From Actinomycetes bacterium (GTDB taxonomy: Bacteria; Actinomycetota; CALGFH01): a stretch of DNA of 26,669 bases. Every line of letters begins with the position of its first letter. Within the stretch, counting starts at the first letter, position 1. Below the pieces are notes generated by a model, which searched no databases, was not told the origin of the DNA, and saw only the letters and a list, made by a program, of their open reading frames with translations. This document shows, in pieces, positions 1,510 to 26,667 of the stretch. A program made the position numbers and the translations under genes. The stretch covers positions 1-26,669 of the forward strand of contig DATHIG010000522.1 in the NCBI GenBank assembly GCA_035490035.1, read 5' to 3'.

Positions 1510-1532
1510 GACCCAAGGAGACGGGCACAAGG

Positions 1533-2012: not shown

Positions 2013-2016
2013 CGCC

Positions 2017-4353: not shown

Positions 4354-4438
4354 GCCGCCTCCTCGACTCGCCCGCTTCCGCGGCGCAGTGTACCGAACGT
4401 CAGTGGCTCGAATCGTTCACCCGGACGGCGAGGTCCAC

Positions 4439-6453: not shown

Positions 6454-7046
6454 CTGCCGATGTCCGGCCCGACGTCGGATTGCTGCCAGACGACCAGGAT
6501 GCGCTGGACCACGGTGATGGCGGTGCCGGCGACCAGCACCCACAACCCGGCTTCGGCGTGCCCGAGCAGCAGGGCGATGCCGAGCACGATGACCCGCTCG
6601 GGACGCTCGGCGATGCCGACGTTGCAGGCGAACCCCAGCGACTCGGCCCGCGCCTTGATGTAGGAGACGATCAGCGACAGGCCGAGCACCAGACCGGCCA
6701 GCATGGCCATGCCGCCCAGGTCCCGGACCACGGCGAACCAGATGACGCCGGCGAGCACGGCCGCGTCCGACAGCCGGTCCACGACCGAGTCCAGGAACGC
6801 GCCCCGGCGGGACATCCGGCCGGAGGCTTTGGCGACCGCGCCGTCGAGCATGTCGGGGAGCCCGGAGAGCAGGCTGACCGCCCCGCCGATCACTGGCTGG
6901 CCGGTGGCGATGAGGGCGCCGGCGCCGAGGCTGCCGGCCAGCCCGACCGCGGTCAGGCTGTTGGCGGTGATGCCGGCCTTGGCCAGGGCGTGGCCGGCCG
7001 GCTCGGTGACGTGGCGGAAGGTGTCGCGGGCCTTTGACGAGAGCAC
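6450..7046 (-). CDS. pgsA: CDP-alcohol phosphatidyltransferase (phosphatidylinositol-phosphate synthase)
   Basis: CDP-OH signature DMLDGAVAK...GAFLDSVVDRLSD, plus SYIKARAESLG and ERPER motifs. Start taken at GTG 7046; ATG 7088 or GTG 7112 are alternatives. Confidence 0.9.
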   Translation of the reverse strand: MLSSKARDTFRHVTEPAGHALAKAGITANSLTAVGLAGSLGAGALIATGQPVIGGAVSLLSGLPDMLDGAVAKASGRMSRRGAFLDSVVDRLSDAAVLAGVIWFAVVRDLGGMAMLAGLVLGLSLIVSYIKARAESLGFACNVGIAERPERVIVLGIALLLGHAEAGLWVLVAGTAITVVQRILVVWQQSDVGPDIGR

Positions 7047-7214: not shown

Positions 7215-9263
7215 GTGAAGAGCTACCCCACCGACCGCGTCCGCAACATCCTCATCGTTGGTCACGGGGGCGCCGGCAAGACCTCCCTCGTCGAGGCTGT
7301 GTGCCATGCCACCGGGGCCACCAACCGCATCGGCCGGGTCGAGGACGGCACCACCGTGACCGACTTCGAGCCGGAGGAGACCCGCAAGCAGATCTCGGTC
7401 TCCCTGGCCGTCGCCCCGGTCGAGCACGACGGCTTCAAGGTCAACCTGCTCGACGCCCCCGGCTACGCCGACTTCATCGGCGACGTCCGGTCGGCCCTGC
7501 CCGCCGCCGACGCGGTGCTGTTCGTGGTCAGCGCCGTGGACGGGGTCGAGACCCAGACCGAGGTGGTCTGGACGATGGCCGAGGAGCTCGGCCTGCCGCG
7601 GGCCTTCTTCATCAGCAAGCTGGACCGCGACCGGGCCTCCTTCTCCCGCGCCCTCGACGCCATCCAGGCCGCCTTCGGCAAGGCCTGCCCGCCGCTGTAC
7701 CTGCCCATCGGCGAGGAGCACGGCCTCCGCGGCCTTGTCGGCCTGCTGTCGGGCCGCGCGTACACCTACGACGGCGGCGGGCGCTCCGAGGGCGAGGTCC
7801 CGGCCGACCTCACCGACGCCGCCCAGAACCTGCGCGAGCAGCTGATCGAGGCGGTCATCCAGGAGTCCGAGGACGAGGAGCTGATGGACCGCTACCTCGG
7901 CGGGGACGAGATCGCTCCGACGGACCTGATCCCCGACCTGGAGCAGGCGGTGGCCGCCGGGCGGCTGTTCCCGGTGCTGGCCGGGGCGGCCATCCGCAAC
8001 ATCGGCGTCACCGAGCTGCTCGAGGTCTGCACCCAGGCGTTCCCGTCCCCCGCCGAGCGTCCGGCCGTCGAGGGCCGCCGCGCCGACCCGGACGGCCCGC
8101 TGGCCGCCTACGTGTTCAAGACCATCTCCGACCCCTACGTCGGCCGCATGAACCTGTTCCGGGTGGTCTCGGGCACGTTCCTGCCCGACAGCACCGTGTT
8201 CAACGCCACCAAGCGCAAGGACGAGCGGGTCGGCCACCTGCTGACCGTCCGCGGCAAGGCCCAGGAGCCGGCCGAGCGGGTGGTTGCCGGCGACATCGGC
8301 GCGGTGGCCAAGCTCACCGACACCGCCACCGGCGACACCCTGACCGCCAAGGACCACCCGGTGGTGCTGCCGGCCCCGGCCATGCCCGACCCGCTGCTGC
8401 CGATCGCGATCGCGCCCAAGTCGCGCGGGGACGAGGAGAAGCTCTCCTCCGGCCTGGCCAGGACCGAGGCCGAGGACCTGACCCTGCGGGTGGAGCGCAA
8501 CGCCGAGACCCACCAGACGGTCCTGTGGGGCATGGGCGAGAACCACATCGAGGTCACCCTGGAGCGGCTCAAGCGCAAGTACGGCGTCGAGGTCACCTCG
8601 GTCCCGCTGCTGCTGCCCTACAAGGAGACCTTCAAGGCGCCGGTCAAGGCGGTCGGCCGGCACGTGAAGCAGTCGGGCGGCCACGGCCAGTACGCCATCT
8701 GCAACATCGAGGTCGAGCCGCTGCCCCGCGGGAGCGGCTTCGAGTACGTCGACAAGATCTACGGCGGCTCGGTCCCCAACCAGTTCATCCCGTCGGTCGA
8801 GAAGGGCGTGCGCAAGGCGATGGAGGACGGCCTGGTCGCCGGCTATCCCGTGGTCGACGTCCGGGTCACCCTCTACGACGGCAAGTACCACACGGTGGAC
8901 TCCTCGGACATGGCCTTCCAGATCGCCGGCAACCTGGCCCTCAAGGAGGCGGCCGCCCAGGCCGAGATGGTGCTCCTGGAGCCTGTCCTGGAGCTGGAGG
9001 TGCTCATCCCCGACGAGTACGTCGGCGACATCCTCGGCGACCTGTCGTCCCGCCGCGGCCGGGTGGTCGGCACCGACCCGGTCGGCACCGGGCGGACGCT
9101 GGTCCGGGCGACCGCCCCGGAGGCCGAGGTGGTCCGCTACGCCATCGACCTGCGCTCGATGACCAGGGGCAAGGGCTCGTTCGCGCGCCGCTTCTCCCAC
9201 TACGAGGAGCTGCCGTCGCACATGGCCGCCAAGGTGATCGAGGAGGTCAAGTCGCGCAGGTGA
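7215..9263 (+). CDS. fusA2: Elongation factor G-like protein (EF-G2 paralogue)
   Basis: GHGGAGKT P-loop, DAPGYADF, HVKQSGGHGQY, HTVDSSDMAF, LRSMTRGKG. Divergent switch I (RKQISV rather than RGITI) and G4 (SKLD) mark the EF-G2 type. RBS GAGGGAGG upstream of GTG 7215. Confidence 0.92.
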   Translation: MKSYPTDRVRNILIVGHGGAGKTSLVEAVCHATGATNRIGRVEDGTTVTDFEPEETRKQISVSLAVAPVEHDGFKVNLLDAPGYADFIGDVRSALPAADAVLFVVSAVDGVETQTEVVWTMAEELGLPRAFFISKLDRDRASFSRALDAIQAAFGKACPPLYLPIGEEHGLRGLVGLLSGRAYTYDGGGRSEGEVPADLTDAAQNLREQLIEAVIQESEDEELMDRYLGGDEIAPTDLIPDLEQAVAAGRLFPVLAGAAIRNIGVTELLEVCTQAFPSPAERPAVEGRRADPDGPLAAYVFKTISDPYVGRMNLFRVVSGTFLPDSTVFNATKRKDERVGHLLTVRGKAQEPAERVVAGDIGAVAKLTDTATGDTLTAKDHPVVLPAPAMPDPLLPIAIAPKSRGDEEKLSSGLARTEAEDLTLRVERNAETHQTVLWGMGENHIEVTLERLKRKYGVEVTSVPLLLPYKETFKAPVKAVGRHVKQSGGHGQYAICNIEVEPLPRGSGFEYVDKIYGGSVPNQFIPSVEKGVRKAMEDGLVAGYPVVDVRVTLYDGKYHTVDSSDMAFQIAGNLALKEAAAQAEMVLLEPVLELEVLIPDEYVGDILGDLSSRRGRVVGTDPVGTGRTLVRATAPEAEVVRYAIDLRSMTRGKGSFARRFSHYEELPSHMAAKVIEEVKSRR

Positions 9264-10237
9264 GCGGCCAACGGGGGGGTCGGAGTCCGCTGCTGGTCAC
9301 CGGCATGCCGCGCACGGCCACCAGCTGGGTGGGCAAGATGCTGGAGGCGAGCGGCCGGCTGGTGTACGTCAACGAGCCGCTGAACCCGCAGCATCCGCCG
9401 GGGCGCTCGCCCGGGGTGCTGCGGGCCGAGGTCGAGCACGCCTTCCAGTACATCAGCGAGGAGAACGAGCGGGTCTGGCTGCCGGCGTTCCGGGACACGG
9501 TGCGCCTGCGCTTCCACCCGCTGGCCGAGCTGCGACGCAACCACGGCCCCTACGACCTGATGCGCACGGTCAAGTACACCGCCGGCTTCGGGCTGGGCCG
9601 GCTGCGCGGGCGCCGGGCCCTGCTCGACGACCCCTACGCGGTGTTCGCCGCCCCGTGGCTGCACCGCCGGGTCGGCTGCCGGGTGGTGGTCACCGTCCGC
9701 GACCCGGTGGCCACCGTCGCCAGCTGGCGCCGGCTCGGCTGGCGGCCGCGGCTTGGCGAGCTGCTGGCCCAGCCGGCCCTGGTCCGCGACCGCCTGGCCC
9801 GGTTCGTGCCCGAGCTGGAGGCGGCCCGCCGCGACGAGGGCGACGGGGTCGACCAGGCCAGCCTGCTGTGGCGGGTGATCTACGGGACGGTGGCCGCCTA
9901 CCGCGGGGAGATCCCGGGCCTGGAGGTGGTCAGGCACGAGGACCTGTCGGCCGACCCGGTGCCGGCGTTCGCCGGGCTCTACGACCGGCTCGGCCTGCCG
10001 TTCGGACCGGAGGCCGAGCGGGCGATCGTTGCGGCGACCTCCGGCGGGGCGGGCGGTGGCGCGATGCGCTGGTCGGTGTCGGCCGGCGGGGTGTCGAAGA
10101 CGGCCGCCCGCCGCCTCGACAGCCGGGCCAACCTGCAGGTGTGGCGGGAGCGGCTGGCCCCCGAGGAGGTGGCCCGCATCCGCGAGCTGACCGCCGAGGT
10201 CGCCGCCGCCTTCGGCTATGGGAAGGGCAGCCGGTAG
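9260..10237 (+). CDS. Sulfotransferase family protein (325 aa)
   Basis: N-terminal 5'-PSB-like loop LLVTGMPRTATSW, NEPLN, 3'-PB-like VRDPVATVASW, and RHEDL...P. GTG start overlaps the EF-G2 stop (GTGA at 9260-9263). Confidence 0.8.
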   Translation: MSGQRGGRSPLLVTGMPRTATSWVGKMLEASGRLVYVNEPLNPQHPPGRSPGVLRAEVEHAFQYISEENERVWLPAFRDTVRLRFHPLAELRRNHGPYDLMRTVKYTAGFGLGRLRGRRALLDDPYAVFAAPWLHRRVGCRVVVTVRDPVATVASWRRLGWRPRLGELLAQPALVRDRLARFVPELEAARRDEGDGVDQASLLWRVIYGTVAAYRGEIPGLEVVRHEDLSADPVPAFAGLYDRLGLPFGPEAERAIVAATSGGAGGGAMRWSVSAGGVSKTAARRLDSRANLQVWRERLAPEEVARIRELTAEVAAAFGYGKGSR

Positions 10238-13368: not shown

Positions 13369-14019
13369 TCAGGTGTTGACGGCAGTGTCCAGCGGATCTG
13401 GCTCGGCGGCGATCCCCGGCCGCAGCGGCAGGCTGAGCCCGACGACGGTGCCGCCACCCTGGCGCTCGGCCACCCAGGACCGCCCGCCGGCGTCGTCGAG
13501 GAACCGGCGGACCACGAACAGCCCGATGCCGTGCCCGCCGTCGCTGGCCTCGGCGACGCCGCGGTCGGCGACGATCACCTCGACCTGGCCGGCCGCCGGG
13601 TCGGCACGGACACCGACCTCGACGCCGTCCGGCCCGCCGTGCACGGCCGCGTTGTCGATCAGGTTCTCGACCACCTGGCGGAGCATGGTGGCGCTGGCCT
13701 CGACCTCGACCTCGACCTGGACGTCGGCCTCGACCCGCACCGACGCCCCGCGGGCGACCCCAACGGTCCTGGCCGCCGACCGCACCGCTGCGACCACGTC
13801 GGCGGCGGTGGCGGTGGCGGCGGGACGGTCGCGGCCCGGGTCGCCGAGCAGCTCGCCGGCCAGGTCGTCGAGGTCGTCGATCTCGCCGAGGAGCAGGTCG
13901 ATCATGGATGCCGGGTCGAGCCCCCGGCCGCGGAGCATGGCGATCGCCTCGCCGACGACCCGCACCGCCGCCATCCGCCGCCGCAGCTCGTGGGCGAGCA
14001 TGGCAACGTCGCTTGGCAT
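13369..14019 (-). CDS. Sensor-less histidine kinase-like protein (HisKA + HATPase_c)
   Basis: H-box AHELRR within the first ten residues, N-box LRQVVENLIDNAAVHG, degenerate G1 (ADRG), G2 GHGIGLFVV. No TM or sensor domain. Start at ATG 14019 is uncertain; the ORF extends to 14088. Confidence 0.8.
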   Translation of the reverse strand: MPSDVAMLAHELRRRMAAVRVVGEAIAMLRGRGLDPASMIDLLLGEIDDLDDLAGELLGDPGRDRPAATATAADVVAAVRSAARTVGVARGASVRVEADVQVEVEVEASATMLRQVVENLIDNAAVHGGPDGVEVGVRADPAAGQVEVIVADRGVAEASDGGHGIGLFVVRRFLDDAGGRSWVAERQGGGTVVGLSLPLRPGIAAEPDPLDTAVNT

Positions 14020-14090
14020 ATCCTGCCGCTTGCCTCCCTGAGCACGCGCAGCTTTCGGCGTGCATGCCGGCCGACACGCATGAGCCACTG

Positions 14091-14346
14091 AGTAGTCCCC
14101 CTGTCGCTACTTGTGGGCCGTCAACGTACTGCGCAGGGGACAAGCTGCCCATCTGAAGAACTGACTAGAGATGGTACGGGTGCATGATCTTCTTCACGAT
14201 CTGGACAGAGCGGGCCGGAAAGGTCGGGCGATTCCCGCGATACCCGGCACACCCTCCCTACAGGCATTTGCAACGGGCGTCGACTGTCGTAGTACGACTT
14301 ACTGCGGCTGTAGTAGGGAACGGACGAGCCGATCGGCCACAGTAGG
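14091..14346. promoter_or_regulatory. Divergent promoter region with recurrent AGTA(G/C)/(G/C)TACT motifs and a palindrome
   Basis: About 61% GC over 14081-14390 by hand count. AGTAG-N11-CTACT (14091-14111), GTCGTA-G-TACGAC (14286-14298), GTAGTAGGG (14310-14318), AGTAGG (14341-14346). Confidence 0.4.
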
Positions 14347-14390
14347 CAGCCGGAAGGCTCGCGAGAGCTCGCTCGGATGACGGGGACACT

Positions 14391-15062
14391 ATGGCACGGG
14401 TGGTGCTGGCAGATTCGCAGCCGCTGTTCAACGAGGCGCTGGAGGCGCTGTTCTCCCGCGATGAGGCGCATCAGGTGATCGGCCGCTGCTCGTCGGCCGA
14501 CGACGCCTTCACCGTCGTCTCCACCCTCCGCCCTGACCTGGTGCTGGTCGACGCCGCCCTCGGCCTGGAAGGCTCGCCGAACCTGGTCGTGCGCATGCTC
14601 GAAGCCTCCCCCGGGGCTCGGGTGATCGTGCTCGGCGACGACCACGACGCCGACCTGCTGCTGGCCGCCATCCGGGCCGGCGCCGCCGGCGTGGTCGGCA
14701 AGACCTACGGCGCCAGCACGGTGCTGCGGGTGGCCGGGGCGGTGCTGGGCGGCGAGGGAGCCGTCCCCCGGAGCATGCTGCTCGAGCTGGCCAGGCGCAT
14801 CGTCTCCAAGGAGCGGGCGGCCGACTCGCCGCTGTCGCGACTCTCCCCCCGCGAGCGTCAGGTGCTCGCCCTGCTCAGCCGGGGCTGGGACAACGCCCGT
14901 ATCGGCCGTGACCTGTTCATCAGCCAGCACACCGTCCGCACCCACATCCAGAACATTCTGGAGAAGCTGGGGATGCACTCCAAGCTCGAGGCCGCCACCT
15001 TCGCGATGCAGCGATCGATGGAGCTGGAGCTGGCCCCCGGCGGCGTCGGGTCGGACCATTGA
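14391..15062 (+). CDS. NarL/LuxR-family response regulator (atypical receiver)
   Basis: VVLADSQ, LVLVD acceptor, GVVGK, LuxR HTH LSPRERQVLALLSRGWDNARIG...TVRTHIQNILEKLGMHSKLEAA. Confidence 0.92.
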   Translation: MARVVLADSQPLFNEALEALFSRDEAHQVIGRCSSADDAFTVVSTLRPDLVLVDAALGLEGSPNLVVRMLEASPGARVIVLGDDHDADLLLAAIRAGAAGVVGKTYGASTVLRVAGAVLGGEGAVPRSMLLELARRIVSKERAADSPLSRLSPRERQVLALLSRGWDNARIGRDLFISQHTVRTHIQNILEKLGMHSKLEAATFAMQRSMELELAPGGVGSDH

Positions 15063-15102
15063 TCTCGGAACCCCAACTCGCAACCCAAAAGGAGCCGGCA
15101 CT

Positions 15103-16269
15103 GTGACGATCAGCGAGCGGATGTTGACCGAACCGCGCGGCGGCCTGCCGCACGGTGGGCAACTGGTCGACCGGCGCCTCGACGCCGACGAGGCGACCGA
15201 CCTGGCGTCCGGCCCGCTGTCTTCCCTGCCGCTGACCGCAGCCGAGGCGGCCGACCTGCGAGCGCTGGCCACCGGCGCCTACAGCCCGCTCACCGGCTTC
15301 ATGGGCGCCAAGGAGCACGAGTCGGTCACCGAGTCGATGCGCCTGCCCGACGGCACCCTCTGGCCGATCCCGGTCTGCCTGGGCGTCCCCGACGGCGTCC
15401 GGGTCGACTCGGGCCGCCTGGCCCTCCGGGGCGAGCGGGACGAGCTGCTGGGCCTGCTCGAGGTCGAGGAGGTGTTCGAGCGCGACCGCGCCGGCGAGGC
15501 CGAGCTGGTCTACGGCACCACCGACCCGGCCCACCCTGGCGTCGCCCGCGTCCTCGGCTCGCCCTCCCGCGCCGTCGCCGGCCCCATCCAGGCGGTGGTC
15601 GAGCCGCTGGACGGGCCGGTGGGCGCCCGCGCCCTCACGCCGCTGGAGACAAGGGCGGCGTTCCAGGCCAGGGGCTGGCGCACGGTGGTCGGCTTCCAGA
15701 CCCGCAACCCGGTCCACCGGGCCCACGAATATCTCATGAAGTGTGCGCTGGAGATGGTCGACGGGCTGCTGCTGCACCCGCTGGTCGGCCCGACCAAGGA
15801 GGGCGATGTCCCCGCCGAGGTCCGCATGCGGGCCTATGAGGCGGTGCTCGGCTACTTCCCACCCGAGCGGGTCCTGCTGGCCGCCCTGGTCGCCCCCATG
15901 CGCTACGCCGGCCCTCGCGAGGCGGTGCTGCACGCGCTGGTGCGCAAGAACTACGGCTGCACCCATTTCATCGTCGGCCGCGACCACGCCGGCGTCGGCA
16001 GCTACTACGGGACCTTCGAGGCCCAGGAGCTGATCGCCTCGCTGCCCTCCGACGACCTGGGCATCACCCCGCTGCGCTTCGACAACGCCTTCTACTGCCG
16101 GCGCTGCCTGGCCATGGCCACCGGCAAGACCTGCCCGCACCCCGACGAGGACCACGTCGCGCTGTCCGGCACCCAGGTCCGGTCGATGCTGGCCGCCGGC
16201 CAGCTGCCCCCGTCCGAATTCTCAAGGGCCGAGGTCGCCGAGCTGCTGATCGAGGCCTACCGTTCCTGA
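15103..16269 (+). CDS. sat: Sulfate adenylyltransferase (single-subunit ATP sulfurylase)
   Basis: GAYSPLTGFM, FQTRNPVHRAHE, MRYAGPREA, VGRDHAG and SGTQVR motifs. RBS AAGGAG at 15089-15094 before GTG 15103. Confidence 0.96.
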   Translation: MTISERMLTEPRGGLPHGGQLVDRRLDADEATDLASGPLSSLPLTAAEAADLRALATGAYSPLTGFMGAKEHESVTESMRLPDGTLWPIPVCLGVPDGVRVDSGRLALRGERDELLGLLEVEEVFERDRAGEAELVYGTTDPAHPGVARVLGSPSRAVAGPIQAVVEPLDGPVGARALTPLETRAAFQARGWRTVVGFQTRNPVHRAHEYLMKCALEMVDGLLLHPLVGPTKEGDVPAEVRMRAYEAVLGYFPPERVLLAALVAPMRYAGPREAVLHALVRKNYGCTHFIVGRDHAGVGSYYGTFEAQELIASLPSDDLGITPLRFDNAFYCRRCLAMATGKTCPHPDEDHVALSGTQVRSMLAAGQLPPSEFSRAEVAELLIEAYRS

Positions 16270-16327
16270 ACCCCTGTCCCGACCATCCGGTCCACCCTCC
16301 ACCACCAGCGGAAAGGCACAGCGACCA

Positions 16328-16873
16328 ATGACCAACGACACCGGCTTCGTGCTCTGGCTCACCGGCCTGTCCGGCGCGGGCAAGTCGACCGTCGCGGCCA
16401 AGCTCGGGCCCGCCCTGGCCGAGCGCGGCCACCGGGTCGAGCTGCTCGACGGCGACGAGGTCCGCACCAACCTCTGCCAGGGCCTCGGCTTCAGCCGGGA
16501 GGACCGCGACACCAACATCGCCCGGATCGGCTACGTCGCCGGCAAGCTGTCCAAGCACGGTGTTGCCGTGCTGGTGGCGGCCATCTCCCCCTACCGGGAG
16601 GCACGCGACCGGGTGCGGACCGCGGTCGACAACTTCGTCGAGGTGCATGTGGCCGCGCCCGTCTCGACCTGCGCCGAGCGCGACGTCAAGGGCCTGTACG
16701 CCAAGGCGCTGTCCGGCGAGATCAAGAACTTCACCGGCGTCTCCGACCCCTATGAGCCGCCCCTCGACCCCGAGATCGTGCTGCACACCGAGGCTGAGAG
16801 CGTCGACGACTCGGTCCACCAGGTCCTCGCCTGGCTCGAGGCCAACCGGCTCACCGCCCCCGCCGACCGGTAG
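16328..16873 (+). CDS. cysC: Adenylyl-sulfate (APS) kinase
   Basis: WLTGLSGAGKST P-loop, LLDGDEVR, ISPYR, RDVKGLY and FTGVSDPYEPP motifs. Confidence 0.97.
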   Translation: MTNDTGFVLWLTGLSGAGKSTVAAKLGPALAERGHRVELLDGDEVRTNLCQGLGFSREDRDTNIARIGYVAGKLSKHGVAVLVAAISPYREARDRVRTAVDNFVEVHVAAPVSTCAERDVKGLYAKALSGEIKNFTGVSDPYEPPLDPEIVLHTEAESVDDSVHQVLAWLEANRLTAPADR

Positions 16874-16877
16874 CGCC

Positions 16878-17759
16878 ATGACCAGCGGGAGGGGGGCCCC
16901 CGCGGCGGTCGACCTGCACACCCACACCGTGGCCAGCGACGGCAGCGACCGGCCGCGGGAGCTGGTCGAGGCCGCCGCCGCGGCCGGGGTGGGCGTGCTG
17001 GCGGTCACCGATCACGACACCGTCGCCTCGGTCGCCGATGCGCGGGCGGCCGGTCGGCCTCTCGGGGTCCGGGTGCTGGCCGGCTGTGAGCTCACCGCCT
17101 CGGTCGGCGACCGGGTCGTGCACGTGCTCCTGTACGGGGAGGGGCTGCTGGAGCCGGACCTGGCCGAGTCGGTCGAGCTGGCCAGGCGCGGCCGGCAGGA
17201 GCGCAACCTGGCCATCGGCGAGCGGCTGCAGCGGCTCACCGGGGTCGGCTACCAGGAGGCGGCCGGGATCGCCGGGCCCAGCGCCCTGTCGCGGGCCCAT
17301 TTTGCGCGGGCGCTGATCGCCCGTGGGGCCGTCGCCGACGTAGCCGAGGCGTTCGACCGCTACCTGTCCTCGGGCAGGCCGGCCTACGTGCCGGCCCCGA
17401 GCGTCTCGGTGACCGACGCGGTCGCCATCGCCGCCAAGGCCGGCGGGGTTGCGGTGCTGGCCCATCCGGGCCGCCTGGCCCCGCCGGAGCGCGACCGGGT
17501 GCTGGCCGAGGCGCTGGAGGCCGGCGTCGACGGCGTCGAGGTATGGCACTCCCAGCACGACGCCGGGCTCCGCCGCTCGCTGGCCGGCCTGGTGGAGCGA
17601 CGCGGCCTGCTCGCCACCGGCGGGTCCGACTACCACGGCCGGCACAAGCCGAGCGTCCGCGTGGGCACCGGGAGCGACGGCAATGTCGCCGTCCCAGGGG
17701 AGCTGCTCGACGCCCTGCTTGACCGGTTGGATTGGCCGACAGCGGCCCCGCCTGGGTAG
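16878..17759 (+). CDS. PHP-domain protein of the TrpH/YciV family; candidate 3',5'-nucleoside bisphosphate (PAP) phosphatase
   Basis: DLHTHTVASDG, AVTDHDT, GCELT, VHVLLY, AHPGR and GGSDYHG PHP motifs. ATG 4 nt after the cysC stop. Confidence 0.85.
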   Translation: MTSGRGAPAAVDLHTHTVASDGSDRPRELVEAAAAAGVGVLAVTDHDTVASVADARAAGRPLGVRVLAGCELTASVGDRVVHVLLYGEGLLEPDLAESVELARRGRQERNLAIGERLQRLTGVGYQEAAGIAGPSALSRAHFARALIARGAVADVAEAFDRYLSSGRPAYVPAPSVSVTDAVAIAAKAGGVAVLAHPGRLAPPERDRVLAEALEAGVDGVEVWHSQHDAGLRRSLAGLVERRGLLATGGSDYHGRHKPSVRVGTGSDGNVAVPGELLDALLDRLDWPTAAPPG

Positions 17760-17806
17760 GCTCCGCGACGCATAGGCCCAAGCAAGACAAGAGGGGGATA
17801 TCACCC

Positions 17807-18964
17807 ATGACATCGCGCGCGCGTCTGCTCCTCCCGGTGCTGGCGCTGCTCCTGGCCTTGGCGACCGCCATCGCCGTGTCCGTGGCCATCTCGCGGCCCG
17901 CGGCCGCGGTGGTCAGCGCCGACCCGGACAACGGCACCCCGCAGACCAACGGGCGCGTGAACGCCGTCGCCTACCTGGGCGGCACGGTCTACATCGGCGG
18001 CAGCTTCACGACCGTCAACGGGTCGACGCGCAACCGGCTGGCCGCCTTCAACGCCAGCGACGGGACGCTGCTGTCGTGGAACCCGAACGCCAACGGGGTC
18101 GTCCGGGCGCTGACGGTGTCCCCGGCCGGCACCCGGGTGTACGTGGGCGGCGACTTCTCCGCGGTGGGCGGGGCGGCCCGCTCCCGGGTCGCCGCCCTCA
18201 GCCCCTCCAGCGGCGCCGCCTTCGGCTGGAGCCCGTACGTCAACGACAGCGTCAAGGCGGTCACGACCTCCAACAGCGGCGCCACCGTGTACGTCGGCGG
18301 CGACTTCGACTCGGCCGAGGGGGCCGGCCGGCAGCGCCTGGCCGCCTTCAACGCCACCAGCGGGAACCTGTCCACCACCTTCAAGCCGAACGTGTCGAAC
18401 GGCACCGGCAACTTCGCCACGGTGCTGTCCATGGACGTCTCCGCCGACGGCAACACCCTCTACTTCGGCGGAGACTTCGCCCTGGTCAACGGCTCCTCGC
18501 GCCGCAACGCGGCCGCCGTGTCGACCGGCGTGGCCAGCCTGCGGGCGTGGAGCCCCAGCGCCACCGCCGACGTCGTCGGCGAGGTCACGGTGTCGGCCTC
18601 CGGGCGGACGGTGTTCGCCGGCGGCCGCAGCACCGGCGGCTACGTGCAGGCCTACGGGCCGACCGTCGGCGGCTCACCGGTGTGGAACGTGGCCACCAAC
18701 GGCGACGTGGAGGCGATCGTGGTCTCCTCCTCGATCCTGTACGTCGGCGGCCACTTCACCACCATCGGCGGCGCCAGCCGCGGCCACCTGGCCGCCCTGC
18801 GCGCCTCCGGCGGCGGCCTGGAGAGCTGGAACCCCGACGCCAACGGCGTCTTCGGCGCGTTCGGGGCGGCCATCGCCAGCGGCCGCGTCGCCTTCGGCGG
18901 CGAGTTCACCCAGGTCGCCTCCGAGAACCATCAGGGCGTCGTGCAGTTCTCCGGCACCCCGTAA
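17807..18964 (+). CDS. Secreted beta-propeller-like repeat protein (seven ~50-aa repeats)
   Basis: Sec-type signal peptide (MTSRAR, hydrophobic core, PAAA) and repeated unit NG.V.A....G..VYVGG.F..V.G..R..LAA.....G....W.P. Confidence 0.8.
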   Translation: MTSRARLLLPVLALLLALATAIAVSVAISRPAAAVVSADPDNGTPQTNGRVNAVAYLGGTVYIGGSFTTVNGSTRNRLAAFNASDGTLLSWNPNANGVVRALTVSPAGTRVYVGGDFSAVGGAARSRVAALSPSSGAAFGWSPYVNDSVKAVTTSNSGATVYVGGDFDSAEGAGRQRLAAFNATSGNLSTTFKPNVSNGTGNFATVLSMDVSADGNTLYFGGDFALVNGSSRRNAAAVSTGVASLRAWSPSATADVVGEVTVSASGRTVFAGGRSTGGYVQAYGPTVGGSPVWNVATNGDVEAIVVSSSILYVGGHFTTIGGASRGHLAALRASGGGLESWNPDANGVFGAFGAAIASGRVAFGGEFTQVASENHQGVVQFSGTP

Positions 18965-18970
18965 GGCCAA

Positions 18971-18991
18971 CCGGCGGCGGGAGGCTGCCGG
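18971..18991 (+). terminator. GC-rich hairpin downstream of the propeller gene (no U-tract)
   Basis: CCGGCGGC-GGGAG-GCTGCCGG forms an 8-bp stem with one G-U pair, starting 6 nt after the stop. Confidence 0.3.
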
Positions 18992-19039
18992 CATGCGACG
19001 CGGCTGGTCAACCTGGTGATCGACGCCACGGGCGAGGCG

Positions 19040-19081
19040 TTCACCGCCCGTACCGCCTGCTGTAGACTCATCTGTAGATGA
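19040..19081 (+). promoter_or_regulatory. Putative promoter and overlapping operator of the toxin-antitoxin operon
   Basis: TTCACC (19040-19045)-N17-TAGACT (19063-19068). Inverted repeat TCATCT-GT-AGATGA (19068-19081) overlaps the -10/TSS region, and TGTAGA is repeated at 19061 and 19073. Confidence 0.55.
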
Positions 19082-19108
19082 TCTTGCAACAACGCGTGGG
19101 GACCCGTG

Positions 19109-19357
19109 ATGGCATCGACAACAGTTCGCGTGACCGAGCACACCCATGAGCTTCTGCGCGAGCTGGCCGCGGCCACCGGCGAGCCGTTGCAGCGGGTTCT
19201 GGAGGAGGCGGTCGAGCGCTACCGCCGCGAGCGGTTCTTCGCCGATCTCCACGCCGCCTATGCACGTCTTGCGGGCGACCGGGCCGCCTGGGCAGCGGAA
19301 CTGGACGAGCGGGCAGAGCTGGACGGCACGCTCGGCGACGGGCTCCGTGATCTGTGA
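19109..19357 (+). CDS. Antitoxin of a type II TA pair (ribbon-helix-helix-like N-terminus, acidic C-terminus)
   Basis: MASTTVRVTEHTHELLRELA...QRVLEEAVERY strand-helix-helix pattern, acidic tail ELDERAELDGTLGDGL. Stop overlaps the toxin start (GTGA). Confidence 0.8.
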   Translation: MASTTVRVTEHTHELLRELAAATGEPLQRVLEEAVERYRRERFFADLHAAYARLAGDRAAWAAELDERAELDGTLGDGLRDL

Positions 19358-19698
19358 GGACCATCCGCCGAGGTGAGGTCTGGCTTGCCGACCTGAACCC
19401 CTCCCGTGGGCATGAGCAGACCGGCCAGCGTCCCGTCCTGGTGGTGTCCGCCGACCCGTTCAACCAGAGTCCGGCCGGGCTGGTCAGCGCTGTTCCGTTC
19501 ACCACCCGCAACCGGGGAATCCCGACCCACATCGAGGTTCGCCCACCGGACGGTGGGCTGCGCGACCTCAGCTTCGCCATGTGCGAGCAGCTCCGCGCGC
19601 TGGCCGCTGACCGACTCGCTTCCCATCCGTTCGGTACCGTGTCTCCCGCCGTGCTAGGTGCCGTCGAGGACCGCCTGCGGCTCCTGCTGGTGCTCTGA
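19354..19698 (+). CDS. mazF: PemK/MazF-family endoribonuclease toxin
   Basis: RRGEVWLADLNPSRGHEQTGQRPVLVVS, VPFTT and SFAMCEQLRAL motifs. Confidence 0.93.
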   Translation: MRTIRRGEVWLADLNPSRGHEQTGQRPVLVVSADPFNQSPAGLVSAVPFTTRNRGIPTHIEVRPPDGGLRDLSFAMCEQLRALAADRLASHPFGTVSPAVLGAVEDRLRLLLVL

Positions 19699-22608: not shown

Positions 22609-23406
22609 TCAGGGGATGCGGCGGGAGCCGACCGGGAAAGGGTCGGCACGGTCCAGGTCGAGCAGGCTGTAGCCGAAGTGGTTGGCGGCCGGCTCGTGGC
22701 GGCGGCACAGCGACCGGAAGCGCTCGCGGCGCCATCCCCTGGCCTCCGACAGCTCCTGCCACTGCCGTTGGTAGGTGGCGCTGCGGCGGGTGTCGATCCC
22801 GCCGGCTGGGATCGGCCCCTCCAGCTCCAGGAAGGCGGCGATCTCGGCCAGGGCCCGCTCCGGCTCCCCCACCAGCTGCTCGTACTTGACCACCAGCAGG
22901 TGGCGCAGGAAGGCGGCGTCCTCCTCGAACAGCCGGTGGGCGGCGAACCAGTGGTCGAGCAGGTCCCCGACCGAGCGGAGCCTCACCCACTTGCGGGTGG
23001 AGAGGCTGACGATCGCCGGGTGCCTGACCACCATCACGAAGCGGGCGTCGGGGAAGGCGGCCTGCAGGAACCGGCCCATCAGCAGGTTGGGCGGGGACTT
23101 CTCGACCAGGACCGGCTTGCCCAGGTCCCAGTGAGGCCGCCACTGCTCCGGCAGACGGGACGCGGTGTCCGGGGTGAGCAGCGGCGACGCCTCGGTGAGG
23201 TGGGAGGCTGGCCGCAGCGCGAACCGGCCAGGCCCGCCGTTGGCCTTGGCCGGAGGGTAGACGGTCTGGAGGTGCTGGCCCTCGTCCTCCTCCACGCCGG
23301 TGCCGTGGAAGCCGCTCACCTGCGGGTGCGCGGCCAGGCAGCGGGTCAGCGGGGTGGTGCCGCTGCGGTGCAGCCCGCCCACGAACACCAGCCGATGGTC
23401 GTTCAT
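22609..23406 (-). CDS. Sulfotransferase family protein (265 aa)
   Basis: FVGGLHRSGTT 5'-PSB loop, EKSPPN, VVRHP (3'-PB) and KYEQLV..P. ATG overlaps the upstream stop (ATGA). Confidence 0.88.
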   Translation of the reverse strand: MNDHRLVFVGGLHRSGTTPLTRCLAAHPQVSGFHGTGVEEDEGQHLQTVYPPAKANGGPGRFALRPASHLTEASPLLTPDTASRLPEQWRPHWDLGKPVLVEKSPPNLLMGRFLQAAFPDARFVMVVRHPAIVSLSTRKWVRLRSVGDLLDHWFAAHRLFEEDAAFLRHLLVVKYEQLVGEPERALAEIAAFLELEGPIPAGGIDTRRSATYQRQWQELSEARGWRRERFRSLCRRHEPAANHFGYSLLDLDRADPFPVGSRRIP

Positions 23407-24737
23407 CCGGTCCCCCCTTGTCGCAGGCGCCGCCCGAGCACCTCGAGCAGGGCGGCGCCGACCGTGTCCGGCCGGCCGGTCACCGCCGAGACCTCGGCCT
23501 CGGCGGCCCGGCAGAGCCGCTCCAGCAGGTACAGGGTGAGCAGCAGCTCCTCGACCCCGGCCTGCTGGCCCAGCTCGGCCAGCCGCGGCGCCGCCCGGTC
23601 GCGGCCGGTGGCCGCCGCCGCGGCCGGCGGCTGCCCGAGGCCCTGCAGGGCGGTCTGGTAGCCGAAATGGAGCAGGTCGAAGCCGAGCGGCACGCCGTCG
23701 CCGCTGCGCTCCCAGTCCCAGACCAGCAGCCGGCCAGGGGTCGAGCGCAGGTTCCATGGGCCCCAGTCGCCATGCCAGGTGGCGAAGGCGAGCCGGGTCG
23801 CCGCCTGCCCAGCGAGCGCCTCGATGGTGGCGTCGAGGGCGGTCGCGGCCCGGCCGTCGGTCTGCGTCCCGGCGGGCCCGACGTCCATGGCCTGCCGGAT
23901 GGGGGCCAGGCGCCGGCGCAGGCCGGCCCACCACGGGCTCTCCCCCAGCGGCATGACCTCGACCCCGCCGAGGGCGGCGACCTCCCTGGAGACGGCCGGC
24001 GGCGGCATGGCGTAGCGGCGGCCGCGGCGCCACAGCCGGTGGGGCAGGGCCGAGCTGATGGTGATCTCCAGCCCATGCCACTGGCCCTGGTGGAGCAGGC
24101 CGGGGGCGGTGAAGCTGCGCGGGCTGGCCTCGGCCAGCCGCCGCAGCATGTCGGCCTCGGCGCGGACCAGGCGGCGGGTCAGGTCGTTCCAGCCGACCTT
24201 CATGTAGCCGACCGGCTGGCCGCCGCGCCCGATGAGCTGCACGACCGGCTTGCGGTTGGGCCGCACCGGGCCCAGGACGATCGCGGCCGCCAGGTCGGGC
24301 CGGCCGAGCGCCGTGGCCACGTGGTCGCCGAGCAGGGTCCCCTCGGCCGGCCCGACGGCACCGAACAGCAGGCCGCGGCGGCGCAGCCACCACTGCAGGG
24401 CGCCGCTGCGCAGGCCGAGGCCGACCGCGGCCTTGGCCAGCCGGGCCCGCTGGGTCATGCCGTCGCTGTACTGGCGGACCGCCTCGGCGGCGGCCCGCCG
24501 CGAGGTCAGCGGCACCAGCACCCGCGGGCGCCGCAGGTCGGGCAGGACACCCCAGCCGAGCGACGACGGGACGCCGACCACCACCTCGACGCGGGGGGTC
24601 GGCCCCCACAGCACCTCGGCCAGCCATTCCAGCTCCCGGGCGCCGCCCCGGGGCCCGGCTCCGGGCGGGCGCCCCCCGCCGGCGGTCGGGGGGGGTTCGG
24701 GGAGGGCGGGCCGGCCCGCCCGACGGGTCGGGCTCAC
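23403..24737 (-). CDS. Protein-kinase-like (APH/choline-kinase-fold) phosphotransferase-like protein
   Basis: YMKVGW (ATP-binding Lys), AEAD (alphaC Glu), Brenner-like WHGDWGPWN and VWDWE. GTG 24737 overlaps the sulfatase stop. The N-terminal ~35 aa are low complexity, so the start is uncertain. Confidence 0.7.
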   Translation of the reverse strand: MSPTRRAGRPALPEPPPTAGGGRPPGAGPRGGARELEWLAEVLWGPTPRVEVVVGVPSSLGWGVLPDLRRPRVLVPLTSRRAAAEAVRQYSDGMTQRARLAKAAVGLGLRSGALQWWLRRRGLLFGAVGPAEGTLLGDHVATALGRPDLAAAIVLGPVRPNRKPVVQLIGRGGQPVGYMKVGWNDLTRRLVRAEADMLRRLAEASPRSFTAPGLLHQGQWHGLEITISSALPHRLWRRGRRYAMPPPAVSREVAALGGVEVMPLGESPWWAGLRRRLAPIRQAMDVGPAGTQTDGRAATALDATIEALAGQAATRLAFATWHGDWGPWNLRSTPGRLLVWDWERSGDGVPLGFDLLHFGYQTALQGLGQPPAAAAATGRDRAAPRLAELGQQAGVEELLLTLYLLERLCRAAEAEVSAVTGRPDTVGAALLEVLGRRLRQGGTG

Positions 24738-26125
24738 GGGCAGCCCGCCCCCTTGCAGGCACGGGCCGCGGCCAGGTCGGCGCCCAGCGTCGCTGGCGGG
24801 TCGTTGGCCGGGTCGTCGTCGGCGAGCAGATTTCGCTCCATGCCAGGGTCGCCGGCCAGGTCGTAGAACTCCCGGTAGACGCCGGGCCCGCCCGGCTGGT
24901 CGTAGTTCTCGATGTACTGCCAGGTGGCGGTGCGCAGGGCGGCCCAGTCGCGGATCCCAGGGGCGTTGGCCGGGTCGCGCCAGTACTCGGCCAGCAGCCG
25001 CTCGCGCCGCCCGCCGTCCAGCAGGGAGCGGCCGTCGACGGTGTCGTCGGGGTCGGGCCGGACGCCGGCCGCGGCCAGCACCGTCGGCTTGATGTCGATG
25101 GTGGCGACCAGGCGGTCGTCGACCGCGCCGGCGGGGAGCCGTCCCGGCCAGCGGGCCAGGAACGGGACCTTGATCGACTCGGTGTAGGGCACGAACTTGC
25201 CCACGTGACGGTGCTCCCCCCAGGAGTAGCCGTTGTCGGAGAGGAAGAAGACCAGCGTGTCGTCCAGCTCGCCGGTCTCCTGGAGCCTGCTCAGCACCCG
25301 GTCGACCAGGTCGTCGACCGACAGCAGGGTGCGCAGCTGGCCGGTCCGCAGCGCCGCCACCGTCGGCCCGGCCACCGGCGCCCGGTCGCGCAGGTAGCGG
25401 GGCTTGCCGGCGACGTCGGGCCCGCCAGCGGTCCCGGCCCGGCCCAGCGCCGGGAAGGTCGCCTTGGCGTACCTCGACTCCGGCACCCTTGGGTCGTGGG
25501 GGGCGAACGGGGCCAGGTAGGCGAACCAGGGCCGGGCGTCGTCGCGCTCGAACTCGGCCAGGTAGGCGAGGGCCTGGTCGCCGATGAAGCTGGTCGAGTA
25601 GGTGGGGACCCGGCGAACCTTGCCGTCCACCTGCCACACCTGGTTGTAGTAGCCGCCGTTGGCCAGTGCCCAGCGGTCGAAGAACGGCGGCGGGCGCCGC
25701 AGCGGCCAGCGGTTGAGGTACTTGCCGGCCATGGCCGTGCGATAGCCGGCGTCCCTGAGGTAGCGCTGCAGGGTGGTCCGCTGGTCGAGCCGGTCGGCCA
25801 GCCGCTGCCGGAGCACGCCGTGGTTGTGGACGTAGCGGCCGCTCAGGATCGACGCCCGCGACGGGCAGCAGCTCGGGGTGGTGGCGTACCCCTGGGTGTA
25901 GGTGACCCCGGCCTCGGCCAGCCAGCGCCGCGTCTTGGGCATCGCCTGGATGGTCTCGGCCCTGGCGTCGTCGGTCACCAGCACCAGCACGTTCGGCCGG
26001 TTGCCGTTCCCGGTCCCGCCGGGACCGGCCACGGCCCCGCCGGAGCGCCTCGAGGCGGTGAACGCCACCACGGCCAGGACCAGGGCGGCGACCACCACCC
26101 CGACCAGGACCAGCCGGCCGCCCAT
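24734..26125 (-). CDS. Formylglycine-dependent sulfatase, GNS/Sulf-like, with N-terminal membrane anchor
   Basis: PNVLVLVTDD, TTPSCCPSRASILSGRYVHNHGV (CxPxR), AGKYLN, PHDP, FLSDNG and GKFVPY. N-terminal hydrophobic helix. Start overlaps the flippase stop (ATG 26125 or GTG 26128). Confidence 0.92.
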   Translation of the reverse strand: MGGRLVLVGVVVAALVLAVVAFTASRRSGGAVAGPGGTGNGNRPNVLVLVTDDARAETIQAMPKTRRWLAEAGVTYTQGYATTPSCCPSRASILSGRYVHNHGVLRQRLADRLDQRTTLQRYLRDAGYRTAMAGKYLNRWPLRRPPPFFDRWALANGGYYNQVWQVDGKVRRVPTYSTSFIGDQALAYLAEFERDDARPWFAYLAPFAPHDPRVPESRYAKATFPALGRAGTAGGPDVAGKPRYLRDRAPVAGPTVAALRTGQLRTLLSVDDLVDRVLSRLQETGELDDTLVFFLSDNGYSWGEHRHVGKFVPYTESIKVPFLARWPGRLPAGAVDDRLVATIDIKPTVLAAAGVRPDPDDTVDGRSLLDGGRRERLLAEYWRDPANAPGIRDWAALRTATWQYIENYDQPGGPGVYREFYDLAGDPGMERNLLADDDPANDPPATLGADLAAARACKGAGCP

Positions 26126-26667
26126 CACGCCTCCGCACCGGGGGGGTTCGGGGTGGCGGCGCCGGCTCCCGGACCCATCGATCGGGACCGGCCGGCCCGC
26201 CGGCGCAGGATGTCGCGGAGGGCCTCCCACTCCAGGCGGTCCCGGAAGCGCCAGAGCAGGACCGCGTACAGGCCGACGCCGGCGGCGGCGTAGGCCACCA
26301 ACCCGGCGACGGTCGGGCCGAGCAGGGCCCGGATGCCCAGCCCGACCAGCCCGAAGCTGACCGCCGACAGCACCGCGGCAACGCCGGTCCCCTGCCCGAA
26401 CGGGTGCAGGCCCATCGACCGCCACACCTGGACCAGCGGGAGCAGATTGTTGAGCAGGATGCCGACCGCGAACGCCACCGCCGCCCCGGCCAGGCCGTAC
26501 CGGGGGGTGAGGGCGAAGTTGAGGGCCAGGTTGGCGCCGAGGGAGACCAGGGTGTTGAACAGGTTCCAGGAGCTGCGGCCGCCCATCAGCAGCACCACGT
26601 CGACCGGCCCGACCGCGGTGGCGACCAGCATGGTGGCCGACAGGATGACCAGCACCACCTGGCCGTC
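26125..26667 (-). CDS. Wzx-like polysaccharide flippase (C-terminal part; truncated by the window edge)
   Basis: GPVDVVLLMGGRS..NL.N.L...GANLALNFALTPRYGLAGAAVA matches the C-terminal pattern of polysaccharide biosynthesis exporters. Frame is open to the window end. Confidence 0.85.
   Translation of the reverse strand, partial: DGQVVLVILSATMLVATAVGPVDVVLLMGGRSSWNLFNTLVSLGANLALNFALTPRYGLAGAAVAFAVGILLNNLLPLVQVWRSMGLHPFGQGTGVAAVLSAVSFGLVGLGIRALLGPTVAGLVAYAAAGVGLYAVLLWRFRDRLEWEALRDILRRRAGRSRSMGPGAGAATPNPPGAEA

What the first reader, a model, noticed from the sequence alone, without database searches (positions are those of the whole stretch)
15103..17759. PHP-family phosphatase occupying the CysQ slot in a sat-cysC operon
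The PHP gene starts 4 nt after the cysC stop. PAP is normally removed by CysQ (inositol-monophosphatase fold) or NrnA-type enzymes, and neither is in the window. A TrpH/YciV-family PHP enzyme from Chromobacterium violaceum (Cv1693) is known to hydrolyse the 3'-phosphate of pAp, while E. coli YciV is an RNA-maturation 5'-exonuclease. Inference: this is a non-orthologous replacement of CysQ dedicated to PAP recycling, and the gene context is evidence for that physiological role.
Basis: partly seen in the sequence, partly recalled or inferred. Interest (0 to 1): 0.65.

Follow-up and report, generated by a model that had tools for sequence, protein, structure and literature searches.

The report
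PHP-type pAp phosphatase in PAPS operon
In this uncultured soil actinobacterium, the genes that make the activated-sulfate donor PAPS are followed, four bases on, by a PHP-family phosphoesterase that most likely destroys the inhibitory by-product pAp; the arrangement is real and conserved, but it is an expected use of an already characterised enzyme family.

Summary
The genes are sat (15103-16269), cysC (16328-16873) and a 293-aa PHP gene (16878-17759) whose ATG lies 4 nt after the cysC stop.

The PHP protein (PHP1) is a TrpH/YciV/Cv1693-family (COG0613) enzyme. It keeps all nine metal ligands, the three 5'-phosphate arginines, the stacking Phe and the HPGR arginine. Its best solved relative is Cv1693.

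PHP1 is a separate clade from a second, vertically inherited paralog (PHP2) found in nearly all relatives. PHP1 occurs in 12 of 20 same-family genomes. It follows sat-cysC in all 10 where the flank can be read, and in one genus it overlaps a sulfotransferase gene instead. COG0613 genes also sit next to cysC, independently, in Bryobacterales.

Two sulfotransferases flank the window's module. A separate APS-reductase-type operon handles sulfate assimilation. No CysQ was found in the family.

Three caveats apply:
- An NrnA-type DHH gene exists elsewhere in the genome.
- Related genomes carry sat-cysC without PHP1.
- Sequence and fold cannot separate pAp phosphatase from 5'-3' oligoribonuclease.

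Databases already name homologs "3',5'-nucleoside bisphosphate phosphatase". Earlier notes of this scan (unchecked) report similar PHP-PAPS modules on other DNA.

Verdict: a plausible dedicated pAp phosphatase, a new member of a known kind, of modest interest.

The parts
14391..15062 (+). NarL/LuxR-type response regulator, 40 nt upstream of sat; likely regulator or first gene of the module
   Evidence: Response_reg + GerE. A homolog lies upstream of sat in the g1, g8, g2 and g5 loci and in metagenome contigs.
15103..16269 (+). sat, homo-oligomeric ATP sulfurylase (sulfate + ATP -> APS + PPi)
   Evidence: PUA_2 + ATP-sulfurylase 2e-93. NF003166 scores 481 bits, above its cutoff. QTRNPxHRAH and GRDHAG motifs are present.
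16328..16873 (+). cysC, APS kinase (APS -> PAPS)
   Evidence: APS_kinase 4e-60. NF002059 scores 260 bits, above its cutoff. The P-loop is intact.
16878..17759 (+). PHP1: COG0613 (TrpH/YciV/Cv1693-type) trinuclear-metal phosphoesterase; proposed pAp 3'-phosphatase
   Evidence: PF02811. The best PDB sequence hit is 2yb1 (Cv1693) at 8e-40. The AF2 model has pLDDT 93 and TM 0.81 to 2yb1 and 9etk. Catalytic and nucleotide-pocket residues are invariant. The ATG lies 4 nt after the cysC stop.
17807..18964 (+). Secreted DUF5122/Rax2-like beta-propeller protein, 47 nt downstream of PHP1
   Evidence: Pfam and an N-terminal hydrophobic leader. It is conserved after PHP1 in g1 and g4, and directly after cysC in g8. 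Its role is unknown.
9260..10237 (+). Sulfotransferase (Sulfotransfer_3), a PAPS consumer and pAp producer
   Evidence: PF13469 at 39 bits, above its cutoff. It has the PAPS-loop-like motif GMPRTATS.
22609..23406 (-). Sulfotransferase (Sulfotransfer_3), last gene of a flippase-sulfatase-kinase-like-sulfotransferase operon
   Evidence: PF13469 at 99 bits. It has the 5'-PSB motif HRSGTT. It is conserved in G009, G005 and metagenome contigs.
23403..26125 (-). APH-like kinase-fold gene (23403-24737) and sulfatase (24734-26125); context of the sulfated-glycan island
   Evidence: Pfam; 4-nt overlaps follow from the coordinates.

Best explanation
PHP1 (16878-17759) is a cytoplasmic, Mn/Zn-dependent COG0613 phosphoesterase. 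Together with sat and cysC it forms a self-contained PAPS supply-and-clean-up module for glycan or metabolite sulfation.

The proposed sequence of steps:
1. Sat makes APS and CysC makes PAPS.
2. The neighbouring sulfotransferases transfer the sulfate and release 3',5'-ADP (pAp).
3. PHP1 binds the 5'-phosphate of pAp with Arg106, Arg109 and Arg139, and stacks the adenine on Phe159.
4. Its trinuclear metal centre (His14, His16, Asp21, His46, Glu71, His82, His196, Asp251, His253, helped by Arg199) hydrolyses the 3'-phosphate, giving AMP + Pi.
5. This prevents product inhibition of the sulfotransferases.

Shown here: gene order, conservation, family membership, residue conservation, and the absence of CysQ from the assemblies searched. 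Inferred: the substrate (pAp) and co-transcription.
For: Family and active site:
- The best solved relative by sequence is Cv1693 (2yb1, 8e-40), the characterised pAp phosphatase.
- The structural model matches 2yb1 at TM 0.81.
- All residues that PMC9410882 lists for metal binding, phosphate contact and 5'-phosphate/adenine binding are invariant in 11 PHP1 orthologs.
- PHP1 keeps the Cv1693/RNase AM motifs HPGR and SRxHF. The housekeeping paralog PHP2 has HPSV and GRPH instead.

Gene context:
- sat-cysC-PHP1 is conserved in 10 genomes of 3 genera, mostly with tight or overlapping cysC/PHP1 junctions, and in independent metagenome contigs.
- In G012, PHP1 overlaps a sulfotransferase gene by 4 nt inside a Wzy/Wzz cluster.
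- On the tree, PHP1 is a clade with 100% support, apart from the vertically inherited PHP2 clade. cysC-adjacent COG0613 genes fall in three separate clades.
- The public Bryobacterales MAGs have cysH-cysC-PHP.

Metabolic logic:
- Two sulfotransferases lie within 6 kb of the module.
- The genome's assimilatory operon (C872) has an APS-reductase-type CysH with the CC...CxxC motifs, so PAPS is made for sulfation.
- The only IMPase-fold gene is HisN, and no CysQ-level hit was found in 41 relatives.

Precedent: a biochemically verified DHH-type pAp phosphatase sits inside an archaeal sat-cysC cluster (PMC8268124).
Against: - No activity data exist for this protein.
- The family is bifunctional. E. 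coli, V. cholerae and P. aeruginosa members are 5'-3' oligo- and diribonucleases that also cleave pAp (PMC11528712).
- PHP1 scores almost equally on NCBIfam's bisphosphatase model (189 bits) and its RNase RNM model (179 bits), both far below cutoff. It matches RNase AM structures as well as it matches Cv1693.
- An NrnA-type gene and PHP2 could also remove pAp.
- Related sat-cysC loci in genus g8, G001, G011 and G015 lack PHP1, so it is dispensable for the module.
- The genome is an 88%-complete MAG, so the absence of CysQ is not proven for it alone.
Confidence: 0.68

Rival explanations
1. PHP1 is an RNase AM-type 5'-3' oligo- or diribonuclease acting in RNA turnover or rRNA maturation. Its place after cysC has no metabolic meaning.
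For: E. coli, V. cholerae and P. aeruginosa homologs are exoribonucleases or diribonucleases. PHP1 matches 9etk (V. cholerae RNase AM) with the best Foldseek E-value. NCBIfam RNase RNM scores 179 bits against 189 for the bisphosphatase model.
Against: A housekeeping paralog (PHP2) is inherited vertically in essentially all relatives and would cover that role. PHP1 is present only in some genomes. Wherever its flank can be read it lies next to cysC or a sulfotransferase. The same association arose independently in Bryobacterales.
Confidence: 0.1
2. PHP1 hydrolyses a different phosphoester of the same pathway. Candidates are PAPS to APS (tuning the donor pool), 2',5'-bisphosphates, or another 3'-phosphorylated nucleotide donor or by-product used by the glycan island.
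For: CysQ-type enzymes are known to accept PAPS as well as pAp (established knowledge). Cv1693 is promiscuous toward 3',5'-bisphosphonucleotides (my recollection of Cummings et al. 2014; the paper is not held). An APH-like kinase of unknown substrate sits in the island.
Against: Hydrolysing PAPS next to the enzymes that make it would be futile. The nucleotide 5'-phosphate pocket and the stacking Phe are those that bind AMP in Cv1693, which fits pAp most simply.
Confidence: 0.15
3. PHP1 is a CpsB/Wzh-like PHP protein-tyrosine phosphatase that regulates polysaccharide chain-length machinery.
For: PHP-family tyrosine phosphatases regulate capsule synthesis in Firmicutes (established knowledge). 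The wider neighbourhood encodes polysaccharide functions such as Wzy, Wzz and a flippase in related loci.
Against: No CpsB-type family or structure appears among the Pfam, NCBIfam, PDB-sequence or fold hits. All top hits are COG0613 nucleotide phosphoesterases, with the insertion lobe and the nucleotide-binding Arg/Phe residues conserved.
Confidence: 0.03

Closest known systems
Cv1693 of Chromobacterium violaceum (PDB 2YB1/2YB4), COG0613 3',5'-nucleotide bisphosphate phosphatase (Cummings et al. 2014, cited in PMC9410882 and PMC8268124)
   Same: The fold is shared (TM 0.81), at 36% identity in the structural alignment and a sequence E-value of 8e-40. The nine metal ligands, the Arg99/Arg102/Arg134 equivalents (Arg106/109/139), the stacking Phe and the HPGR motif are the same.
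   Different: PHP1 scores below NCBIfam's equivalog cutoff (189 bits against 400). It comes from an actinobacterial MAG lineage and is embedded after sat-cysC. I found no such gene context described for Cv1693 in the papers I could search. Activity is untested.
RNase AM (YciV/TrpH) of E. coli, V. cholerae and P. aeruginosa (PDB 7UG9, 9ETK)
   Same: Same family, same active site and same 5'-phosphate pocket.
   Different: RNase AM is a stand-alone housekeeping gene studied for 5'-3' RNA trimming and diribonuclease activity. In this genome that housekeeping position is more plausibly filled by the paralog PHP2.
Archaeal sat - DHH pAp phosphatase - type I phosphodiesterase (NPP) - cysC cluster (Pyrococcus yayanosii, PMC8268124)
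   Same: A pAp-removing enzyme is encoded inside the PAPS-synthesis cluster. Related genomes here (G011, and unpublished G022) even carry the NPP gene between sat and cysC.
   Different: The archaeal enzyme has the DHH/DHHA1 fold, not the PHP fold, and its gene order differs.
CysQ (IMPase-fold 3'(2'),5'-bisphosphate nucleotidase)
   Same: The proposed reaction and physiological role are the same. In relative G030 a CysQ-like gene sits directly after the APS-kinase gene (a 649-aa open frame, probably a cysN-cysC fusion), that is, in the same slot.
   Different: The fold and metal chemistry are unrelated. No CysQ was found in this genome or its family; the only IMPase-fold gene is HisN.

Membership tests
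COG0613 PHP phosphoesterases (TrpH/YciV/Cv1693) | PHP (distorted TIM-barrel) fold with the helical insertion lobe | tested here: met
   The AF2 model has pLDDT 93.1 and pTM 0.89. Foldseek gives TM 0.78-0.81 to 9etk, 3e0f and 2yb1 over about 270-283 columns.
COG0613 PHP phosphoesterases (TrpH/YciV/Cv1693) | Nine ligands of the trinuclear metal site (RNase AM His13, His15, Asp20, His45, Glu72, His83, His198, Asp255, His257) | tested here: met
   The PHP1 equivalents are His14, His16, Asp21, His46, Glu71, His82, His196, Asp251 and His253. All are invariant in 11 orthologs and in 31 diverse homologs. The mapping rests on the phmmer alignment to 7ug9 and the residue list in PMC9410882.
COG0613 PHP phosphoesterases (TrpH/YciV/Cv1693) | Nucleotide 5'-phosphate pocket (three Arg) and stacking Phe | tested here: met
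   Arg106, Arg109, Arg139 and Phe159 are invariant. Arg199, equivalent to RNase AM Arg201, is invariant in PHP1 but is Val in PHP2.
NCBIfam NF041577 3',5'-nucleoside bisphosphate phosphatase (equivalog) | Score above the curated cutoff (400 bits) | tested here: not met
   PHP1 scores 188.9 bits. The rival equivalog NF047791 (RNase RNM) gives 179 bits against a cutoff of 375. PHP1 is therefore a divergent family member that neither model assigns.
NCBIfam NF041577 3',5'-nucleoside bisphosphate phosphatase (equivalog) | Hydrolysis of pAp to AMP + Pi | not testable with these tools
   This needs an enzyme assay. Only context and residue conservation argue for it.
CysQ / IMPase-fold bisphosphate nucleotidases | Inositol_P (PF00459) fold | tested here: not met
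   PHP1 has no Inositol_P hit. The genome's only PF00459 gene is HisN, with TIGR02067 at 303 bits, above its cutoff.
NrnA-type DHH pAp phosphatase / oligoribonuclease | DHH + DHHA1 domains | tested here: not met
   PHP1 lacks these domains. A separate DHH-DHHA1 gene lies between infB and truB on contig C636.
CpsB/Wzh PHP tyrosine phosphatases | Match to CpsB-type families or structures | tested here: not met
   No such hit appears in the Pfam, NCBIfam, PDB-sequence or fold searches.

The most novel reading that the evidence does not exclude
In lineages without CysQ, COG0613 PHP enzymes are the physiological pAp phosphatases. PHP1 would then be a Cv1693-like copy, possibly acquired horizontally and distinct from the actinobacterial housekeeping paralog, that was recruited into PAPS modules. 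The same recruitment happened at least three times independently: in this actinomycete family, in a second actinobacterial family, and in Bryobacterales. This would be the first in-vivo-type (genomic) evidence that pAp removal, not RNA trimming, is the selected function of whole clades of the 'RNase AM' family.
Probability: 0.45. Interest if true: 0.5.

Novelty: new member of a known kind. Interest (0 to 1): 0.35.

Why it matters
The physiological role of the TrpH/YciV/RNase AM family is unsettled. Its pAp phosphatase activity is known only in vitro (Cv1693), whereas genetics in gamma-proteobacteria point to RNA and diribonucleotide turnover. A clade whose members sit beside cysC or a sulfotransferase in the 11 related genomes where the flank could be read, next to a separate housekeeping paralog in the same genomes, offers a natural paired experiment (PHP1 against PHP2) to define what makes a family member a pAp phosphatase. 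It would also improve annotation of sulfation gene clusters in uncultured soil Actinomycetota. The practical gain is modest, because automated pipelines already give these proteins the bisphosphate-phosphatase name.

Tried and rejected
- **Discriminating pAp phosphatase from RNase AM.** NCBIfam equivalog scores, PDB sequence ranking and fold ranking all came out nearly tied, so none is informative.
- **Reading Cummings et al. 2014.** I tried by DOI and by PMC id; the paper is not held. Statements about its kinetics and its CysQ/NrnA/COG0613 distribution analysis rest on my memory and on citing papers.
- **Literature on a PHP gene in PAPS or sulfotransferase clusters.** No paper turned up in the searchable library.
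- **Promoter and terminator scan of 14000-19400.** It found nothing. This is uninformative for a 74% GC actinobacterium, so the operon structure is inferred from spacing only.
- **CpsB-like tyrosine phosphatase.** Considered and rejected, as no hits support it.
- **A PHP1 pseudogene in G005.** The in-frame TAG or frameshift is rejected as evidence of decay. The same contig shows split matches for EF-G, PatA and other genes, which indicates assembly errors.
- **Recent in-family duplication of PHP2 as the origin of PHP1.** Rejected on the tree. PHP1 lies outside the well-supported actinobacterial PHP2 clade, but its true sister group is unresolved.
- **Not attempted.** I did not run a phylum-wide count of which gene follows cysC (PHP, IMPase or DHH). 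I did not run a complex prediction, because no binding claim is made.
Full report
**Observation.** The window is contig C522 of an 88%-complete MAG of 4.35 Mb in 899 contigs, with about 74% GC. Its close relatives are soil MAGs labelled "Actinomycetes bacterium" or "Actinomycetota bacterium". Third-position GC analysis and the ORF list give a co-directional run of five genes:

| Gene | Coordinates | Evidence |
|---|---|---|
| NarL-type response regulator | 14391-15062 | |
| sat | 15103-16269 | GTG start with AGGAG upstream |
| cysC | 16328-16873 | |
| PHP-domain gene | 16878-17759 | |
| secreted DUF5122 beta-propeller | 17807-18964 | |

Pfam and NCBIfam confirm Sat (NF003166, 481 bits) and CysC (NF002059, 260 bits), both above cutoff with intact motifs, and PF02811 for the third gene.

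**What the PHP protein is.**
- Its best solved relatives by sequence are Cv1693 (2yb1, 8e-40), V. cholerae RNase AM (9etk), E. coli RNase AM (7ug9) and BAD_1165 (3e0f). All lie between 1e-40 and 1e-37 over the full length.
- An AlphaFold model built on 31 homologs has pLDDT 93. It superposes on 9etk, 3e0f and 2yb1 at TM 0.78-0.81.
- I mapped the phmmer alignment to 7ug9 onto the residue list of PMC9410882. PHP1 keeps every metal ligand: His14, His16, Asp21, His46, Glu71, His82, His196, Asp251 and His253.
- It also keeps the phosphate-contacting Arg199, the 5'-phosphate pocket (Arg106, Arg109, Arg139) and the stacking Phe159. All are invariant in 11 orthologs.
- It is therefore an intact COG0613 enzyme. 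It is not a CpsB-type tyrosine phosphatase, a histidinol phosphatase or a polymerase PHP domain.
- NCBIfam's two equivalog models for this family give nearly equal, sub-threshold scores: bisphosphate phosphatase 189 bits (cutoff 400) and RNase RNM 179 bits (cutoff 375). Sequence and fold therefore cannot tell pAp phosphatase from 5'-3' oligoribonuclease. [quoted passage not shown]

**Two paralogs.**
- The genome has a second COG0613 gene, PHP2, on contig C626 at 41% identity.
- Across 40 relatives, a PHP2-type copy at about 40% identity is found in nearly every genome. A PHP1 ortholog (59-92% identity) is found in 12 of the 20 same-family genomes.
- A maximum-likelihood tree of 122 sequences puts PHP1 in a clade with 100% support on a long stem. 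This clade lies outside the well-supported, vertically structured actinobacterial PHP2 clade. The sister group of PHP1 is unresolved.
- PHP1 shares the HPGR and SRxHF motifs of Cv1693 and RNase AM. PHP2 has HPSV and GRPH, like the Bifidobacterium protein 3e0f.
- PHP1 is thus an extra, Cv1693-like copy beside a housekeeping one.

**Conservation of the context.**
- In all 10 relatives where the upstream flank is available, PHP1 follows sat-cysC: G002, G003, G004, G005, G006, G009, G010, G013, G014 and G018, from three genera.
- In most of them the cysC/PHP1 junction is 1-5 nt or overlapping.
- In G008 the two genes are at facing contig ends.
- Independent metagenome contigs show the same regulator-sat-cysC-PHP-propeller run, plus the sulfotransferase/kinase-like/sulfatase/flippase operon.
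- In G012, a fourth genus, PHP1 is not beside cysC. Instead it overlaps a Sulfotransfer_3 gene by 4 nt, next to a second sulfotransferase, Wzy and Wzz.
- I examined 73 COG0613 loci from other phyla. Three of them, all Bryobacterales MAGs, have cysC immediately upstream, preceded by cysH. They form their own clade on the tree.
- Two genomes of another actinobacterial family (G022 and G038) also have cysC-PHP. These genomes are UNPUBLISHED, and this single claim, together with the sat-NPP-cysC-PHP order in G022, rests on them.
- A random gene has roughly a 1-in-several-thousand chance of having cysC as its neighbour. Three independent junctions among a few dozen sampled lineages is far beyond chance. 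This is a rough inference, not a formal test.

**Metabolic logic.**
- The window holds two Sulfotransfer_3 genes (9260-10237 and 22609-23406). It also holds a sulfatase, and probably the 3' end of a flippase gene at 26125-26667; this last reading rests only on position in related contigs.
- A second locus (C872) carries cysC-sat-cysH-sulfite reductase. Its CysH has the CC...CxxC iron-sulfur motifs of APS reductases. Assimilation therefore does not need PAPS, and the window's module most plausibly feeds sulfotransferases, which release pAp.
- The only IMPase-fold gene in the genome is HisN (TIGR02067 above cutoff). No CysQ-level hit was found in 41 relatives, including several that are 93-100% complete.
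- In relative G030, from another family, a CysQ-like gene directly follows the APS-kinase gene (a 649-aa open frame, probably a cysN-cysC fusion). The "CysQ slot" is therefore real in this phylum.

- A DHH-DHHA1 gene lies between infB and truB on contig C636. From my own knowledge, this is where the mycobacterial NrnA/CnpB gene (Rv2837c) sits. It matches NCBIfam's NrnA model only weakly (88 bits against a cutoff of 350). It is nevertheless a second candidate pAp phosphatase, as is PHP2.
- Several related loci have no PHP1, and those genomes still lack CysQ:
  - Genus g8: sat-cysC followed directly by the propeller gene.
  - G011: sat-NPP-cysC.
  - G015: a Sat-CysC fusion followed by a sulfotransferase gene.
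  - G001: cysC at a contig end, with a regulator gene converging on it.
- PHP1 is thus an accessory, module-dedicated enzyme and not the lineage's only replacement for CysQ.

**Novelty.**
- The enzyme family and its pAp activity are known.
- JGI's pipeline already names many of the metagenomic PHP1 homologs listed at 80% identity or more "3',5'-nucleoside bisphosphate phosphatase".
- A pAp phosphatase inside a sat-cysC cluster has a published precedent with a DHH enzyme in archaea (PMC8268124).
- I found no paper describing a PHP-type enzyme in that position.
- Earlier unchecked notes of this scan list similar PHP-PAPS modules in at least eight other genomes.
- I class it as a new member of a known kind. 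Its main value is as genomic support for the physiological pAp role of part of the RNase AM family, and as a natural PHP1/PHP2 pair for defining specificity.

**Verdict.** The best explanation is a dedicated pAp 3'-phosphatase, with confidence about 0.68 and interest 0.35.

Noticed in passing
L037 (G000:C872) 1919-6897: A second sulfate locus in the same genome: cysC, sat, an APS-reductase-type cysH (CC...CAPC motifs), a NIR_SIR sulfite reductase, then a FrhB/FdhB-like protein with two 4Fe-4S motifs. The last gene hints at an F420-linked assimilatory sulfite reductase in an actinobacterium. It is also unclear why an APS-reductase operon keeps its own cysC.
   Followed up: partly
L043 (G011) 3857-7034; L047 (G022, unpublished) 7585-10849: A type I phosphodiesterase/NPP gene (461-489 aa) sits between sat and cysC. 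This is the same insertion as in the archaeal sat-DHH pApase-NPP-cysC cluster of Pyrococcus yayanosii, where it is speculated to remove PPi (PMC8268124). Its recurrence in bacteria suggests a conserved but untested role in PAPS synthesis.
   Followed up: partly
L154 (G015) 3223-6005: Sat and CysC are fused in one 605-aa ORF, and a sulfotransferase gene overlaps its end by 4 nt. Here the slot after cysC is taken by the PAPS consumer, not a pAp phosphatase.
   Followed up: partly
L045 (G012) 345-7005: A PHP1 ortholog overlaps an upstream sulfotransferase gene by 4 nt. A HIT-domain gene converges on it, and a second sulfotransferase, Wzy and Wzz follow. This looks like a sulfated-polysaccharide cluster without sat-cysC on the 7.3-kb contig.
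   Followed up: partly
window 17807-18964: A secreted DUF5122/Rax2-like beta-propeller protein is conserved directly after PHP1 (g1, g4), or directly after cysC where PHP1 is absent (g8). Its function and its link to sulfation are unknown.
   Followed up: no
window 19354-19698: A MazF/PemK-type toxin gene (PF02452, 1.8e-26) lies between the PAPS module and the MFS/AspRS genes. No antitoxin was identified.
   Followed up: no
L052 (G005:C19) 60000-79999: PHP1, EF-G, PatA, the propeller gene and the sulfatase all give split or frame-shifted matches on this contig. This points to an error-prone assembly and not to real pseudogenes.
   Followed up: partly
window 10216-12633: An 805-aa protein with a weak PhoD-like phosphatase match (28 bits) lies between a sulfotransferase gene and a response-regulator/short histidine-kinase pair. 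It is conserved in G009.
   Followed up: no
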